DNA from: a virus
Lineage: Duplodnaviria > Heunggongvirae > Uroviricota > Caudoviricetes
DNA: 26,360 bases
Virus record (IMG/VR): IMGVR_UViG_2534682078_000020
Strand: one strand, 5' to 3'
Below are positions 13,214-23,687 of this stretch, piece by piece. Below the pieces are notes generated by a model. The model had not been told where the DNA came from, made no database searches, and saw only the letters and a list, made by a program, of their open reading frames with translations. How positions within the stretch are numbered: position 1 is the stretch's first letter; each line of letters opens with the position of its first letter. Made by a program: the position numbers and the translations under genes.

Positions 13214-13632
13214 ATGGACAAATATGAATTTAGACGACAACAACTCATCAAAATTCGTGATGAGAAATGCGATGGTAAAGCGGTTAACGTGGCCAGAAAG
13301 ATCGGTCGCGAGCCTTCTTATGTATCAAGAATGTTGTACCCAGAGGGGAAAAAGGAAAAAAACGGATCGCTGATGATATGGTGGAGATTATAGAAGAGTC
13401 CTTTGGGTTACCCCGGGGATGGATGGATGGTATCGTTTCATCATCAACGAACACAGCCTCCAATTATGAAACAAGGGTTCTAACGCCACGACAACGTATT
13501 TTTTTAGATCTCTTAGACGAACTGCCAGAAAGTGAAGCGGATAACTTATTAAAAACTCTTGAAGAGAAAAAACAGTATTACAATATGATCTACGAAGAAA
13601 TCCGTAAAAAGAAAGCACAAAACGCATCATAA
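13214..13632 (+). CDS. CI-like prophage repressor, split into two frames at an A7 run (13356-13362) as assembled
   Basis: ORFs 13172..13393 and 13378..13632 fuse if the A7 run is A8; N-terminal HTH (KAVNVARKIGREPSYVSRML); leaderless-type ATG at 13214. Confidence 0.55.
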
Positions 13633-13675
13633 CTCACCAAACAACCAGTCACCAGTTAAGACACATCAAAAAATT

Positions 13676-13710
13676 ACCCATGGGTATTTACTTTTTAAAT
13701 ACCCATGGGT
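13676..13710. promoter_or_regulatory. Two palindromic operator sites (T/A)TACCCATGGGTAT, 25 bp centre-to-centre, upstream of the left operon
   Basis: ACCCATGGGT at 13676-13685 and 13701-13710, the second a perfect 14-bp palindrome ATACCCATGGGTAT; TTTTTAAAT between them could be a -10 element. Confidence 0.6.
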
Positions 13711-13897
13711 ATCCTTCCTTTCATACCAACCCACCCCGTCCCACAGAACGCAGGGCAATACTTCGAGTTACCAGGCAGTGGTCAGGGGGTAAGTAGCCAG
13801 CCCGAGGCGTAAGAACATGACGGCAGGGTTCAACTTTAATAACTATGCAGCAGGTTTTTGTTCCGCTACCCCGGCGTTAAGGGGAAATGAGGTCAGC

Positions 13898-14050
13898 ATG
13901 GATACTATCGATCTTGGCAACAGCGAATCTCTGGTATGCGGCGTGTTTCCCAACCAGGACGGTACGTTTACCGCGATGACGTATACCAAAAGTAAAACGT
14001 TTAAAACCGAAGCTGGCGCGCATCGCTGGTTAGCAAGAAACTCCGACTGA
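13898..14050 (+). CDS. Small left-operon protein (YdfA-like, ~50 aa)
   Basis: ATG at 13898 preceded by GAGG; position matches the first small gene after the repressor in dicB-type operons. Confidence 0.45.
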   Translation: MDTIDLGNSESLVCGVFPNQDGTFTAMTYTKSKTFKTEAGAHRWLARNSD

Positions 14051-14061
14051 TGAGGTTGACG

Positions 14062-14700
14062 ATGGAATTTAAAGATTTACCTCCTTCAATCCAGGAGATT
14101 GCAGCACACACACTTCGTCATCGTCTGAACGAACTTGAATTGGAATCGGTAACGAAAAAAGACACTGATAATATGGCTCGTAATGTGCGCGATGCGTTTA
14201 CCGGATTGTATTTCTGTGCGTCTATAAATAAACACGACTCAGAGAGTGTGGCAAATAAAATTGCAGAAACGACAGCGCAAAACATCAATACGAAACCAAC
14301 GGAAGAAGAAATTGATCAGTTTGCTCATGATGCTGGTTTAAAAAACAAGAAAGAAAAATCGCCATATGCGGGGAACATGTTTGTTTATGACAATCTCATC
14401 AGAATTCGTGGCGAAATTCCGGCGGAATACCTGGCAAGAGTCCATCAGGCATTGCTTAAAAATTTGGAAACAGAATTATTTGATGGCAACACTAACGGTT
14501 TCTTCATGGTATCAGGCCTTGATAAAGACTGGGATGCAGAAAAACGCTGGAATGTTGCTACATGGTTATTCAGTAACAGAGCCGCTGCACTGGAAGCTTC
14601 GGCATGTATTTGCGGCCTGTTCTTAACAGACCACAAATATAATCTGGATGTGTACAGTTATATTTACGCTGAACACGGTCCACTCTGGATTGACTGGTAA
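14062..14700 (+). CDS. Hypothetical protein (212 aa), cargo gene downstream of repressor
   Basis: Long ORF with GAGG before the ATG at 14062; no family recognised. Confidence 0.55.
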   Translation: MEFKDLPPSIQEIAAHTLRHRLNELELESVTKKDTDNMARNVRDAFTGLYFCASINKHDSESVANKIAETTAQNINTKPTEEEIDQFAHDAGLKNKKEKSPYAGNMFVYDNLIRIRGEIPAEYLARVHQALLKNLETELFDGNTNGFFMVSGLDKDWDAEKRWNVATWLFSNRAAALEASACICGLFLTDHKYNLDVYSYIYAEHGPLWIDW

Positions 14701-14910
14701 TTATAAGGAAACACCAGCAGGGCCGCGGCGACCAACAGAACGATTAAAATCAATAATGCCATTATAAAGGACATTATTTAATTTATCGTCGAATGCTGAT
14801 TCTGTGAGCCTCAACTCTGAATGAGTTTTTAATAACCCTGATTGCCTGAGTTGATTTACCAGGCATTCAATCTGTTTTTCAATAAGCGGATTTCTTTTTT
14901 TGTTTGGCAT
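14701..14910 (-). CDS. Hypothetical small protein (69 aa), convergent with the 212-aa gene
   Basis: ATG at 14910 preceded by GGAGGA at ideal spacing; stop abuts the stop of the + strand gene. Confidence 0.45.
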   Translation of the reverse strand: MPNKKRNPLIEKQIECLVNQLRQSGLLKTHSELRLTESAFDDKLNNVLYNGIIDFNRSVGRRGPAGVSL

Positions 14911-15247
14911 TTTATCCTCCATTGAGGTTCTGGGTTAAAAATGGAGACCAACACGCTGTCACGTGTGGTCGTGCGCCGGACACGGATAAGAATCCGGTAC
15001 TGACAGTTTACTGAAAGGATATTTCCCTGAAAAGTCAGGGCATAACGCGAAAGCGTACGGCGAAGCTCTTTCCCTTAGAAGGCTTGTCGTTAGATTTCTT
15101 CGAACGTGCGCTTCCGGTTGTGGCACTCCGCGAAATGGCGCGGCGGTAAGTATGGCGGGGTTATTCCTTCCCCGTTGAGGACACCGGGTTGTCAGGTTGA
15201 CCATACGCTTAAGTGACAACCCCGCTGCAACGCCCTCTGTTATCAAT

Positions 15248-20999: not shown

Positions 21000-21030
21000 T
21001 CGCCTTCCAGCAAGCAGACAATCGTAGTAA

Positions 21031-21061
21031 ATAAAAAACGCAGGGAGGTTTACTCTCCCTG
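21031..21061. terminator. Bidirectional Rho-independent terminator between int and the convergent small gene
   Basis: CAGGGAG-GTTTACT-CTCCCTG with A-run on the left and TAATTTG on the right. Confidence 0.6.
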
Positions 21062-21068
21062 TAATTTG

Positions 21069-21320
21069 TCACTTACGCCCTTTGTTTGATTGTGCCAAAA
21101 CAGAGGCTGCAAGTTGCTTCGTTAACTTGCTGGAACGTGGATTATCAAGAGCTGATGATGCCTTATGCTCCATTTGCCCACTTGTCTGGTTTGATGTCCC
21201 ACGTTGTGAAAGCGCGGAACCAGCGAGGCTTTTCTGGATAGCTGAAGCGTTCGGATTAGTCAGCGTTTTTGCAGCGGTAGAAGCCACATTTTCAGAAGTC
21301 TGTTTTACGTTTTTACTCAT
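21069..21320 (-). CDS. Hypothetical Ser/Ala/Thr-rich small protein
   Basis: ORF followed by a terminator; low-complexity composition; no family recognised. Confidence 0.35.
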   Translation of the reverse strand: MSKNVKQTSENVASTAAKTLTNPNASAIQKSLAGSALSQRGTSNQTSGQMEHKASSALDNPRSSKLTKQLAASVLAQSNKGRK

Positions 21321-22022
21321 GAAACGAATCCCCAAGAAGTTATGAATATTCCTTATGCAGTACTTTCATTTCTAAAAAAACACTATATGAAGTGATAACC
21401 ATATTTTTTATAAGCCTTAATTTTGCTAAAGGCAATATTATTGCTGTATAAAATTACAGTAAAAGTTTAATTGATTGATTTTAATCATAAAAATATTCAT
21501 TCAGACAGGAACAAGAGACGCCAGAAGCTCCTTATCTTCCTTAAATGGTTGCCTTCTGAAAATCAAGATTGAGGGCCGTGTTAACATTACGCGGGTAAGA
21601 TCATTGAACATACATAGCTCAGCAGTTAGCAGATAAGGCTGAAGCAACGTATCAACGAGGGAACGCGGTTGCGCTGAAGGATGATTGGACGGCGTATTCT
21701 TTTACCAATATTTAACTGCTCTGTTTGAAAACACCGTTATGTTCCCTATCTCTCATAAAGGACAACTTCCTGACACCAGCTTTTCTGGTTGTATTAAATA
21801 AATGATAAGGGAAAAGCTATTACCAATATATAAATACAATGAATATACATAATCTATTCATCACAACTATTTATTCTCCGGATGGCCTATGCCAAATGAC
21901 CTGTATATAAAAACATTACTGGTTATACATTCAGCGCAAAAGTTGTCATATATCAATTTATTTTGTTCAATTAGAGTCTACCATAGCCAAAGTAAAATAT
22001 TTTTATTGAAGGATTAATCCTG

Positions 22023-23017
22023 ATGGCTACGACAGTTATCTCAGCATTTAATGAATTTCTCAAAGAGAGCGTAAATTTAGATTCAAATAAAACAATAACT
22101 GCTCGCAGTAGTAGAGATTGGTTAATTAGTAAGATTAATAACTTCGATAATAATCAAAGTTTTCCTTACATATATCAAGATATTCATATTAACTTTGGTT
22201 CTTTTGCTCGAAGGACCAAGATAAGACCTCTTGATGATATAGATATCATGATTGGTATAAAAAGTGATTATTGTACTTACTATGAAAATAATGAAGACAT
22301 AAAAATATTAATAGATTCAAACACAGCAAGATTAAATAATTATACTCATGATAATACTACATATGTAAATTCAAGAAAAATAATAAATCTTTTTGTTTCT
22401 GAGTTGTCGAAAATAGAACAATATTCATCTTCGGAGATCAACAGGAGACAAGAGGCTGCTACACTAAAGTTGAAATCTTATGATTGGAATTTTGATATAG
22501 TACCTTGTTTTATAACAGTGCCAGATATTTATGACAGAACTTTTTATCTTATTCCTGATGGGAACGGTCACTGGAAAAAACAGATCCAAGAATAGATAAA
22601 AACAGAACAACTGACATAAATGTTAAACATGACGGAAATATGTTAAATGTAATAAGAATCGTTAAATACTGGCAAAAAAGAAAAACAATGCCCACGATGA
22701 GTTCATATTTATTAGAAACTATTTTACTTAATTATTATGATAATAAATCATATTGTTCACCATATGTTGATATTGAGTTAGAGGGGGTTTTTAGACACAT
22801 ATCTGATGTAATATACAATACTGTAAATGATCATAAAAACATCCAAGGTGATATTAATAACCTACCTTGGGATGATCGAGTGAAAATATCCAATAAAGCA
22901 TTATCAGATGCTGAAAAAGTAAATTTAGCTAGAGATTTAGAAGAAAAATATGATTATCAGAAGTCGATAAATGTTTGGCGTGAAATTTTTGGTGATGCAT
23001 TTCCACAATATGGATAA
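22023..23017 (+). CDS. cGAS/DncV-like nucleotidyltransferase (CD-NTase / SMODS-type), read across an A6 run; two ORFs as assembled
   Basis: GS...DxD motif in INFGSFARRTKIRPLDDIDIMIG, third acidic residue in NFDIVPCF, C-terminal helix motif NVIRIVKYWQKRK; second ORF frame is open back to 22559 and fuses with the first if A6 (22575-22580) is A7. Confidence 0.6.
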
Positions 23018-23020
23018 GTA

Positions 23021-23687
23021 ATGAACTCAGTATATTCAAGACAAAATACACAAGAGAATTTAGAGCGGTTAATGGCTCAGCGTATTTTATATTCAAATAT
23101 AAAATTCATTAACCATGTAAATTTTTTATTTAGTGTGTTAATGCCCATATTAATAACGGTTAGCAAAGATTATATCATTACCGTTTTCCCCGGAGTTGAA
23201 AATGATATACTCCAATATTTTAGCTACTATGGTATTGGTATTTTAATTTTTACCATCATAACAAATGAATACATTTCAATAGCAAAAAAATAATGCAGCA
23301 AAAATACAAGAGGAATTTGACTGTGATGTATTAGGAATTCCTTGGAATGAATTGAAATGTGGCGATAAAGTAAATCACAGAATAATAGTTAAAGCAGCAA
23401 AGGAATATAAAGAAAAATACAATATAGATATACTCAAAAACTGGTACATTTCGCAAGAATATAGTTTACCACCGCTGAAAATGACAATTTTATGTCAAAA
23501 TGAGAATACAGAATGGGATTTATCTCAAAGGATCGTAGTAGGTTGTATAATCAAAACCATCATTTTTCTTTCAACGGTCTCACTGTTATTTTATGGTATA
23601 TATAATGGAGTAAAACTAAGTGATTTCCTATTTTATATAGTCTTTCTTTTACCACTTATAAGACATATATATAACATTAAAGGATAA
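23021..23687 (+). CDS. Predicted four-TM membrane effector (S-4TM-like), read across an A7 run; two ORFs as assembled
   Basis: Start 3 nt after the nucleotidyltransferase stop; hydrophobic helices FLFSVLMPILITV, YYGIGILIFTIIT, IVVGCIIKTIIFLSTVSLLFYGIY, FLFYIVFLLPLI; frames fuse if A7 (23284-23290) is A8. Confidence 0.5.

What the first reader, a model, noticed from the sequence alone, without database searches (positions are those of the whole stretch)
13356..23290. Four independent ORF splits, all at A6/A7 runs and all repaired by adding one A
Seen in sequence: the CI-like repressor (A7 at 13356-13362), integrase (A6 at 17971-17976), nucleotidyltransferase (A6 at 22575-22580) and membrane effector (A7 at 23284-23290) are each broken into two ORFs whose frames overlap and fuse if the run is one A longer. 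Four events of the same sign at the same sequence class are unlikely to be independent decay; systematic homopolymer under-calling in the assembly is the simplest explanation. The IS629 orfA/orfB junction also sits on an A6 run, but that one is the expected programmed -1 site. If the splits are real, the prophage repressor and the defence module are both inactivated, which would be notable in itself.
Basis: seen in the sequence. Interest (0 to 1): 0.6.

Follow-up and report, generated by a model that had tools for sequence, protein, structure and literature searches.

The report
Homopolymer miscalls in a draft contig
Three of the four broken genes are most likely base-calling errors at runs of A in an old draft E. 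coli assembly, while the fourth break is a real and ordinary pseudogene mutation of the opposite sign, shared by the whole O111 lineage.

Summary
The window is an entire draft contig, AFDS01000060.1, labelled 'E. coli 2534-86'. It is nearly identical to a prophage and defence-island region found in 43 finished E. coli O111 genomes.

Against those genomes it lacks exactly four single A's:
- 13349-13353: A5 here, A6 elsewhere.
- 17971-17976: A6 here, A7 elsewhere.
- 22575-22580: A6 here, A7 elsewhere.
- 23880-23881: A2 here, A3 elsewhere.

None of these shorter alleles occurs in any of 5,426 complete E. coli genomes. The intact proteins each occur on at least 1,000 contigs.

A second draft contig (AIGF01000026.1) shows the same kind of damage. 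It has nine homopolymer indels and no substitutions across 17.7 kb. Nine other assemblies of the same 5.5 kb block, eight of them finished genomes, show six SNPs and no indels.

Two details need correcting. In the repressor the missing base lies in the neighbouring A5 run, not the A7. The 'integrase' was already a dead exonuclease::integrase fusion.

The fourth site (A7, 23284-23290) is a misreading. Adding an A gives a stop 19 codons later. The intact orthologue implies A6 there. That +1 insertion, together with a 2-bp TA-repeat loss, really does inactivate the CBASS 4TM effector across O111.

The result is ordinary and of low interest.

The parts
13214..13632 (+). CI/RacR-position prophage regulator gene. 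It is 139 aa when intact. Here it is split into 13214-13393 and 13378-13632.
   Evidence: Translations. The intact 139-aa protein (WP_000362152.1) is annotated in E2863 and seen on at least 1,000 contigs. It matches PHROG 5736 'transcriptional regulator' at 4.7e-70. It lies divergent from a Cro/YdaS-like regulator and a YdaT-family gene.
13349..13353 (+). A5 run that is A6 in all relatives. This is the actual missing base in the regulator gene.
   Evidence: Base-by-base alignment to E2863. The tract is G4A6G2A7 in all six other loci that cover it: L001, L005, L007, L008, L011 and L012. 0 of 821 complete genomes match the window's 77-mer exactly, and 95 match the canonical version exactly. A5 is also seen in the draft contigs AIGF01000026.1 and AIGJ01000049.1.
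13356..13362 (+). In this window it has the canonical length.
   Evidence: Other lineages and drafts carry A6 here, but no RefSeq complete genome does with these flanks.
15950..18336 (+). In-frame fusion of the N-terminal part of a RecE-like exonuclease with the C-terminal part of a tyrosine integrase. It is 795 aa in relatives and is already a deletion pseudogene. Here it is cut to 677 aa.
   Evidence: RefSeq annotates both halves as incomplete pseudogenes. Pfam Phage_integrase matches residues 637-768 only. Genomes 8E and 95NR1 keep separate 823-aa exonuclease, DUF4224 and integrase genes; the integrase is 341 aa in 8E and IS-interrupted (281 aa) in 95NR1.
17971..17976 (+). A6 run that is A7 in all relatives.
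   Evidence: A7 in L001 and L004-L013. 0 of 1,118 complete genomes match the window's 77-mer exactly. The truncated 677-aa product exists only on AFDS01000060.1 and AIGF01000026.1, against at least 1,000 contigs for the 795-aa form. The draft CVM9570 reads through.
22023..23017 (+). CBASS CD-NTase (SMODS) gene, 331 aa when intact. Here it is split into 22023-22595 and 22640-23017.
   Evidence: Pfam SMODS 3e-12. PADLOC oligonucleotide cyclase 2.8e-149 over the full length. The intact 331-aa form is on at least 1,000 contigs, and the 190-aa fragment is not in the 15-billion-protein collection.
22575..22580 (+). A6 run that is A7 in all relatives, including the second draft assembly (AIGF).
   Evidence: All 43 complete genomes holding the island are 2 bases longer over 21900-23960.
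23021..23936 (+). S-4TM (CBASS 4TM effector) pseudogene. It is in three pieces in all O111 genomes and has one extra frameshift in this window.
   Evidence: RefSeq annotates three S-4TM CDS fragments. The intact orthologue P0070 is 305 aa, with Pfam S_4TM at 8.2e-55 and PADLOC 4TM effector at 7.9e-136. Removing an A at 23284, adding TA at 23666 and adding an A at 23880 gives 305 aa identical to P0070 except L284F.
23284..23290 (+). It is a real +1 insertion (ancestral A6 inferred) fixed in the O111 lineage, not an under-call.
   Evidence: A7 in all 13 loci examined. The 90-aa product ending here is listed in 4,330 blocks of the assembly collection. The intact orthologue reads ISIAKNNAAKIQ, which this DNA yields only with one A fewer.
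23665..23673 (+). TA-dinucleotide repeat carrying a real 2-bp contraction. This is the second lineage-wide frameshift in the effector.
   Evidence: The sequence is identical in all loci that cover it. Restoring one TA restores the P0070 reading '...RHIYITLKDNKD...'. The ancestral DNA is inferred from the protein and was not seen directly.
23880..23881 (+).
   Evidence: All 43 complete genomes are two bases longer over 21900-23960, with near-identical bit scores; the position of the gap was checked base by base in 10 loci.
25339..26360 (+). IS1203/IS629 copy cut by the contig end. Its A6 at 25711-25716 is the programmed -1 frameshift site.
   Evidence: The orthologous copy is annotated 'IS3-like element IS1203 family transposase, programmed frameshift', with a pseudoknot feature. 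The frames are shown. The run length is identical to E2863.

Best explanation
The window is a complete contig of an early draft assembly, AFDS01000060.1. Its four private single-A losses are consensus base-calling errors at homopolymers. They sit at 13349-13353, 17971-17976, 22575-22580 and 23880-23881. The pattern is the kind made by flow-based chemistry (454 or Ion Torrent). They are not mutations of the strain.

These errors split three ORFs that are single ORFs in every high-quality genome:
- the prophage regulator
- the exonuclease::integrase remnant
- the CBASS cyclase

They also add a third frameshift to an effector gene that was already dead.

The break at the A7 run 23284-23290 is a different thing. 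It is a genuine +1 A insertion, accompanied by a genuine 2-bp loss in a TA repeat. Together these turned the S-4TM effector of a two-gene type I CBASS system into a pseudogene in the common ancestor of the O111 clone.

What is shown: the differences, their exclusivity to this draft, their restriction to homopolymers, and the sign of each event. What is inferred: the sequencing platform, and therefore the physical cause.
For: **Provenance.** The window is the whole of AFDS01000060.1, 26,360 bp.

**The differences.** Against finished genome E2863, the only single-base indels in 26.4 kb are four losses of A inside A runs.

**Exclusivity.**
- All 43 complete genomes with the island are 4 bases longer over 13000-24000 and 2 bases longer over 21900-23960.
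- Run lengths were checked directly in ten of them.
- Exact matches to the window's alleles in 5,426 complete E. coli genomes: 0/821 for site 1 and 0/1118 for site 2.
- The intact 139-, 795- and 331-aa proteins are each on at least 1,000 contigs. The 677-aa truncation is on 2 contigs. The 190-aa and 59-aa fragments are on none.

**A second draft with the same signature.** AIGF01000026.1 differs from E2863 by 9 homopolymer indels (7 losses, 2 gains, in both A and T runs) and 0 substitutions in 17.7 kb. It has A7 at 22575.

**Background.** Nine other assemblies of the 5.5-kb block, eight of them finished genomes, show 6 SNPs and 0 indels. The window shows 0 SNPs and 2 indels there.

**Length dependence**.
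- Window: 2 of 13 runs of length 7, 1 of 37 of length 6, 1 of 908 of length 3.
- AIGF: 3 of 9 runs of length 7 and 2 of 25 of length 6.

**Site 4 is real.**
- The A7 is the same in all 13 loci.
- Its 90-aa product is listed in 4,330 blocks of the collection.
- The intact 305-aa orthologue needs one A fewer.
Against: - The platform and read depth of AFDS and AIGF could not be looked up. No reads were inspected.
- Two of the four losses (13349, 17971) are shared by AFDS and AIGF. By my rough estimate from the per-length rates, chance coincidence of independent errors would give about 0.5 shared sites. They could therefore be real variants of a sub-lineage, or the two assemblies could be the same strain.
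- The contig also has private non-homopolymer differences: SNPs at 173 and 5829, and an 8-bp deletion at 25339. The strain is therefore not identical to any finished genome.
- All four losses are A on the + strand and lie within 10.5 kb of a 26-kb contig. That is mildly non-random: (10.5/26.4)^4 is about 0.025.
- Frameshifted alleles of the regulator's G4A6G2A7 tract occur in other lineages, including a Logan assembly. Real slippage there is therefore possible.
Confidence: 0.82

Rival explanations
1. The four A losses are real, strain-specific frameshift mutations. One route would be a mismatch-repair-deficient lineage in which homopolymer slippage is frequent. In that case the strain has truly lost the prophage regulator and the CBASS cyclase.
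For: - The contig carries other private differences, so it is a distinct strain.
- Two of the losses recur in a second assembly.
- Real frameshift alleles of the regulator tract exist in other lineages.
- Two of the four hits fall in genes that were already dead, where nothing selects against them.
Against: - In 5948-23673 there are 3 homopolymer deletions and 0 substitutions. In the whole 26 kb there are 4 single-base deletions against 2 SNPs and one complex patch.
- From my own knowledge of E. coli mutation-accumulation studies, base substitutions outnumber indels roughly tenfold in repair-proficient cells. Transitions also rise sharply in MMR mutants.
- The sister draft carries a different, larger set of homopolymer indels of both signs and has the intact allele at 22575. 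That pattern fits errors, not descent.
- None of the alleles is in any complete genome.
- A regulator in the RacR position that represses YdaS/YdaT-type toxins may be hard to lose. This is an inference from the K-12 Rac literature and was not tested here.
Confidence: 0.12
2. The A runs are sites of regulated slippage. This could be programmed ribosomal frameshifting, transcriptional slippage, or phase variation, so that split ORFs would be the functional state, as in the IS629 transposase.
For: - The IS1203/IS629 copy in the same window does use an A6 run for programmed -1 frameshifting.
- Sites 2 and 3 share the context GGAAAAAA(A)CAGAT.
- The regulator tract varies in length among some assemblies.
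Against: - In every finished genome the three genes are single uninterrupted ORFs, so no frameshift is needed.
- No tract-length polymorphism is seen among 43 O111 genomes, or among 821 and 1,118 complete genomes with these flanks.
- The window's alleles would need +1 events.
- The effector needs two separate corrections of different kinds (one A removed and a TA added), which no single slippage event supplies.
Confidence: 0.02
3. The short runs come from a chimeric consensus. Reads from paralogous lambdoid prophages were merged into this contig.
For: At 4292-4296 the contig carries a 5-position patch that matches a paralogous prophage copy inside orthologue-type flanks. Some cross-recruitment or micro-conversion therefore did occur.
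Against: - The CBASS island is single-copy: one place per genome in all 43 genomes. The losses at 22575 and 23880 therefore cannot come from a paralogue.
- No complete genome holds the window's 77-mers at sites 1 and 2 at any locus, paralogous or not.
Confidence: 0.03

Closest known systems
Homopolymer-length miscalls of flow-based sequencing (454 pyrosequencing, Ion Torrent) left in draft consensus sequences
   Same: - The indels are confined to homopolymers.
- Their frequency rises steeply with run length.
- Under-calls dominate, with some over-calls.
- There is no accompanying excess of substitutions.
- They produce apparent frameshifted genes.
- Different sites are hit in two drafts of near-identical DNA.
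   Different: The platform of AFDS and AIGF was not verifiable with the tools, and no reads were seen. Two sites recur in both drafts, which needs either context-dependent systematic error or a real shared variant.
Type I CBASS (CD-NTase cyclase with a 4TM/S-4TM membrane effector)
   Same: A two-gene cassette on a tRNA-Asn-linked integrase island. The cyclase matches a PADLOC cyclase model end to end, and the effector matches the S_4TM / 4TM effector models.
   Different: In the O111 lineage the effector is a fixed pseudogene, with a +1 in an A run and a -2 in a TA repeat, while the cyclase stays intact. The system is presumably non-functional there. An intact 305-aa effector exists in a few other E. 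coli.
IS3-family programmed -1 frameshift (IS629/IS1203 orfA-orfB at A6)
   Same: An A run at the junction of two overlapping frames, in the same window.
   Different: The IS site is conserved as a split in all copies and is annotated as programmed, with a pseudoknot. The four disputed sites are unsplit in relatives.
racR-ydaS-ydaT-type immunity region of Rac-like cryptic prophages
   Same: A small regulator (139 aa, PHROG transcriptional regulator) is transcribed divergently from a Cro/YdaS-like regulator and a YdaT-family gene.
   Different: There is no Pfam family hit for the 139-aa protein. Homology to RacR or lambda CI was not tested, so 'CI-like' rests on position and on names given by sources.

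Membership tests
Sequencing/assembly homopolymer artefact | The differences from high-accuracy assemblies of the same clone are single-base indels inside homopolymers. | tested here: met
   All four single-base indels against E2863 lie in A runs. All nine differences in the sister draft lie in runs of two or more identical bases, seven of them 5-7 bases long.
Sequencing/assembly homopolymer artefact | The error frequency rises with run length. | tested here: met
   Window: 2/13 (length 7), 1/37 (length 6), 0/118 (length 5), 1/908 (length 3). AIGF: 3/9 (length 7), 2/25 (length 6), 2/81 (length 5)..
Sequencing/assembly homopolymer artefact | The alleles are absent from independent high-quality assemblies. 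| tested here: met
   0/821, 0/1118, 0/43 and 0/43 complete genomes. Run lengths were verified in 10 loci.
Sequencing/assembly homopolymer artefact | The read pile-ups or platform metadata show ambiguous run lengths. | not testable with these tools
   No reads or GenBank assembly comments are available. The genome announcement thought (from memory) to cover the AIGF series, PMC3370608, is not held.
Programmed frameshift / transcriptional slippage gene | The split-ORF architecture is conserved among relatives. | tested here: not met
   Relatives have single ORFs of 139, 795 and 331 aa.
Phase-variable simple-sequence contingency locus | The tract length is polymorphic among closely related isolates. 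| tested here: not met
   No variation at 17971, 22575, 23284 or 23880 among the O111 genomes. For the regulator tract, variation appears only in drafts of other lineages and in no RefSeq complete genome. That one tract remains inconclusive.
Type I CBASS | A CD-NTase/SMODS cyclase is present. | tested here: met
   PADLOC PDLC00802 at 2.8e-149 over residues 1-331; Pfam SMODS at 3e-12. The test used the repaired (E2863) sequence.
Type I CBASS | An adjacent intact effector gene (4TM) is present. | tested here: not met
   The effector is adjacent, starting 4 bp downstream. It is broken by two lineage-wide frameshifts in all 43 finished genomes.
Type I CBASS | The system makes a cyclic-oligonucleotide signal and gives phage protection. 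| not testable with these tools
   This needs an experiment.

The most novel reading that the evidence does not exclude
The compound tract G4-A6-G2-A7 in the prophage regulator gene (13345-13362) could be a natural slippage hotspot that repeatedly switches off the RacR-position repressor of Rac-like cryptic prophages. On this reading, the window's A5 allele and the A6G2A6 and A5G3A6 alleles seen in other lineages would be real on/off variants rather than errors. The other A-run losses in this strain would then be real as well.
Probability: 0.06. Interest if true: 0.4.

Novelty: not a real feature. Interest (0 to 1): 0.1.

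Why it matters
The value here is quality control. This contig, and probably the rest of the AFDS and AIGF/AIGJ draft assemblies, carry roughly one homopolymer error per 2-7 kb. 'Frameshifted' repressors, integrases or defence genes scored from them should not be read as biology. Pseudogene counts and defence-system inventories built on such drafts will be inflated.

The one real biological point is modest. 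The O111 EHEC clone carries a type I CBASS island whose 4TM effector was inactivated by two slippage-type mutations before the clone diversified. The cyclase has stayed intact in all 43 finished genomes and on at least 1,000 contigs.

Tried and rejected
- **Platform in the literature.** I looked for the sequencing platform of AFDS and AIGF. The genome announcement I believe (from memory) describes the AIGF series, PMC3370608, is not held. Searches for the accession and strain names gave nothing on methods.
- **DNA of the intact S-4TM orthologue.**
  - The scan of species-representative genomes found only relatives at 24-31% identity.
  - The ancestral A6 and the extra TA are therefore inferred from the protein.
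- **Paralogue-derived chimeric consensus.** I considered this as the source of the short runs. It is rejected because the island is single-copy and no locus in 5,426 genomes has these alleles. It may still explain the 4292-4296 patch.
- **Natural instability of the regulator tract.** Frameshifted alleles exist in other drafts. None exists in RefSeq complete genomes with the same flanks.
- **Origin of the private SNP at 5829.** I checked whether it came from a paralogue. It is essentially private: only 1 of 1,896 records matches at 99% or better.

Full report
**What the window is.**
- The 26,360-base window is the whole of contig AFDS01000060.1 from assembly GCA_000225065.2. The source calls it 'Escherichia coli 2534-86'.
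- It covers, in order:
  - the early and immunity region of a defective lambdoid prophage
  - tRNA-Ser, mtfA and tRNA-Asn
  - an integrase island carrying a two-gene CBASS cassette (SMODS cyclase plus S-4TM effector)
  - a pilV remnant
  - an IS1203/IS629 copy cut by the contig end
- The 13000-24000 stretch matches 43 complete E. coli genomes at about 100% identity. Every one that carries a serotype in its name is O111.

**Checking the observation.**
- For the regulator, the 'integrase' and the nucleotidyltransferase, adding one base fuses the frames. The result is exactly the 139-, 795- and 331-aa proteins annotated in finished genome E2863.
- For the membrane effector the claim fails.
  - The downstream frame is +1 relative to the upstream frame, so fusion needs one base removed or two added.
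  - Adding an A gives a stop 19 codons later.

**What actually differs from relatives.** A base-by-base alignment to E2863 shows four single-base indels in 26.4 kb. All are losses of an A inside an A run.

| Window position | Here | In relatives | Note |
|---|---|---|---|
| 17971-17976 | A6 | A7 | |
| 22575-22580 | A6 | A7 | |

The A7 at 23284-23290 is identical in E2863 and in all 13 loci examined.

**Are the short runs private to this draft?** Yes.
- All 43 complete genomes are 4 bases longer over 13000-24000 and 2 bases longer over 21900-23960.
- I confirmed the run lengths directly in ten of them.
- Short exact-match searches found the window's allele in 0 of 821 complete genomes carrying the regulator segment. 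They found it in 0 of 1,118 carrying the integrase segment. The canonical regulator 78-mer is exact in 95 genomes.
- In a collection of about 15 billion proteins, the intact 139-, 795- and 331-aa proteins each sit on at least 1,000 contigs. The truncated 677-aa product is on two contigs only. The 190-aa and 59-aa fragments are absent.

**The second contig is telling.**
- The other contig with the 677-aa product is AIGF01000026.1.
- Over 17.7 kb it differs from E2863 by nine homopolymer indels and no substitutions. Seven are losses and two are gains, and they fall in both A and T runs.
- It shares the losses at 13349 and 17971 with the window. It has the intact A7 at 22575 and its own further errors, for example in the A7 at 13356 and the T7 at 14895.
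- A third draft contig, AIGJ01000049.1, also shows A5 in the regulator tract.
- Nine other assemblies of the 5.5-kb mtfA-to-effector block, eight of them finished genomes, show six SNPs and no indels. The window shows no SNPs and two indels there. AIGF shows no SNPs and five indels.
- The hits concentrate in the longest runs:
  - Window: 2 of 13 runs of length 7, 1 of 37 of length 6, 1 of 908 of length 3.
  - AIGF: 3 of 9 runs of length 7 and 2 of 25 of length 6.
- From general knowledge, this is the classic signature of flow-based sequencing errors left in a consensus. I could not verify the platform: the relevant genome announcement is not held and no reads are available.

**Caveats.**
- Two of the four losses are shared by AFDS and AIGF. 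This may reflect context-dependent systematic error, because the tract G4A6G2A7 is a chain of homopolymers. It may also mean the two assemblies are closely related strains with real shared variants. I cannot tell these apart.
- The contig has private non-homopolymer differences: SNPs at 173 and 5829 and an 8-bp deletion beside the IS end. It is therefore a distinct strain.
- Frameshifted alleles of the regulator tract (A6G2A6, A5G3A6) occur in other lineages' assemblies, including one built from a public read set. None occurs in RefSeq complete genomes with these flanks.
- I put about 0.8 on artefact overall. Confidence is higher for 22575 and 23880 and somewhat lower for 13349 and 17971.

**The fourth site is real biology, but ordinary.**
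- The 90-aa product ending at the A7 stop is listed in 4,330 blocks of the assembly collection.
- RefSeq annotates the effector as three S-4TM fragments in all 43 finished genomes.
- An intact 305-aa orthologue, P0070, exists on 11 contigs of other E. coli. It reads '...ISIAKNNAAKIQ...' and '...RHIYITLKDNKD...'.
- Three edits to the window give 305 residues identical to P0070 apart from L284F:
  - remove one A at 23284-23290
  - add one TA in the repeat at 23665-23673
  - restore the A at 23880
- So the O111 ancestor suffered a +1 in an A6 run and a -2 in a TA repeat. Both are slippage-type mutations, and together they killed the effector. The ancestral DNA is inferred from the protein, because I could not fetch it.

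- The 'integrase' at site 2 is not an intact gene in any case. It is the C-terminal part of a tyrosine integrase fused in frame to the N-terminal part of a RecE-like exonuclease by a deletion. RefSeq marks both halves as incomplete.
- O111 strains 8E and 95NR1 still have separate 823-aa exonuclease, DUF4224 and integrase genes. The integrase is 341 aa in 8E and IS-interrupted (281 aa) in 95NR1.
- The 'CI-like repressor' has no Pfam hit. It does match a PHROG transcriptional-regulator family and occupies the RacR/CI position opposite a Cro/YdaS-like gene and a YdaT-family gene.
- The 'nucleotidyltransferase' is a CBASS cyclase (PADLOC 2.8e-149) and the 'membrane effector' is the 4TM CBASS effector.
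- The IS629/IS1203 remark is correct.

**Rivals.**
- Real strain-specific mutations, possibly in a mutator background. These are disfavoured by the indel-to-substitution ratio, by the sister draft's different set of errors of both signs, and by the absence of the alleles everywhere else.
- Regulated slippage. This is contradicted by the unsplit ORFs in all relatives and the lack of tract polymorphism.
- Chimeric consensus from paralogous prophages. This cannot explain losses in the single-copy island. No locus in 5,426 genomes has the alleles. It may explain the paralogue-type patch at 4292-4296.

**Verdict.**
It is wrong in both sign and cause for the fourth.
- Nothing new is present beyond a quality warning for these drafts and a fixed, ordinary CBASS effector pseudogene in O111. 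Interest is low.

Noticed in passing
whole window (AFDS01000060.1): Sources name the contig's strain 'E. coli 2534-86'. A paper that uses this very assembly (AFDS01000066) treats 2534-86 as a porcine enterotoxigenic strain (PMC4358887). Yet the contig matches a prophage/island configuration found in 43 of 5,426 complete genomes, differing by only about 18 bases in 26.4 kb, and every one of those with a serotype in its name is O111. Possible explanations are a sample or label mix-up, two strains with the same name, or a genuinely related background.
   Followed up: partly
window 4292-4296: The window reads 'GCTAACACCCACC' where all orthologous O111 loci read 'GCCCCCCCACC'. The patch matches a paralogous prophage copy (E2855 at 1.118 Mb), while the flanking diagnostic bases stay orthologue-type. 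No complete genome has the window's 83-mer. This is either a chimeric consensus at a C run or a micro gene conversion.
   Followed up: yes
window 25339 (left end of IS1203/IS629): Eight bases (TGATATAG) that sit directly outside the IS left end in E2863 are missing from the window. This is an IS-adjacent deletion or an assembly effect next to a repeat. I did not check whether other genomes share it.
   Followed up: no
window 15950-18336; L004 1557-5315; L010 243-5315: In most O111 genomes a deletion fuses a RecE-like exonuclease to the integrase C-terminus in frame, giving a 795-aa ORF. Strains 8E and 95NR1 keep the undeleted arrangement of an 823-aa exonuclease, a DUF4224 gene and an integrase (341 aa in 8E; IS-interrupted, 281 aa, in 95NR1). 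Other genomes have IS91 or IS1203 insertions there.
   Followed up: partly
window 22023-23936: On the O111 CBASS island the cyclase is intact on at least 1,000 contigs, while the adjacent 4TM effector is a fixed pseudogene. An intact 305-aa effector exists on only 11 contigs of other E. coli. A close cyclase relative occurs in Salmonella serovar Plymouth.
   Followed up: partly
window 13345-13362; loci L021-L029: The G4A6G2A7 tract of the prophage regulator gene appears as A6G2A6 or A5G3A6 (net -1) in several assemblies of other lineages. These include a 5.3-Mb chromosome (CP042981.1) and a Logan assembly (SRR19977217). No RefSeq complete genome with the same flanks has these alleles. Whether these are real frameshifts or platform errors is unresolved.
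   Followed up: partly
window 23871-23878: The A8 run in the effector remnant was created by a T-to-A change (Phe to Leu relative to the intact orthologue). O111 strains 8E and 95NR1 still have TAAAAAAA.
   Followed up: no
L003 (AIGF01000026.1) 17352-17419, equivalent to window 23300-23367: Three of the sister draft's nine indels cluster in the last 400 bases before its contig end. They include errors in runs of only 2-3 bases, as expected where coverage falls off.
   Followed up: no
window 3203-3454, 18389-18478, 19470-19545: By transfer from the E2863 annotation: a prophage-borne tRNA cluster (Arg, Arg, Ile), and the tRNA-Ser and tRNA-Asn genes that flank the prophage end and the CBASS island. 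The region 19446-19552 is repeated at three other tRNA-Asn loci downstream in E2863.
   Followed up: no
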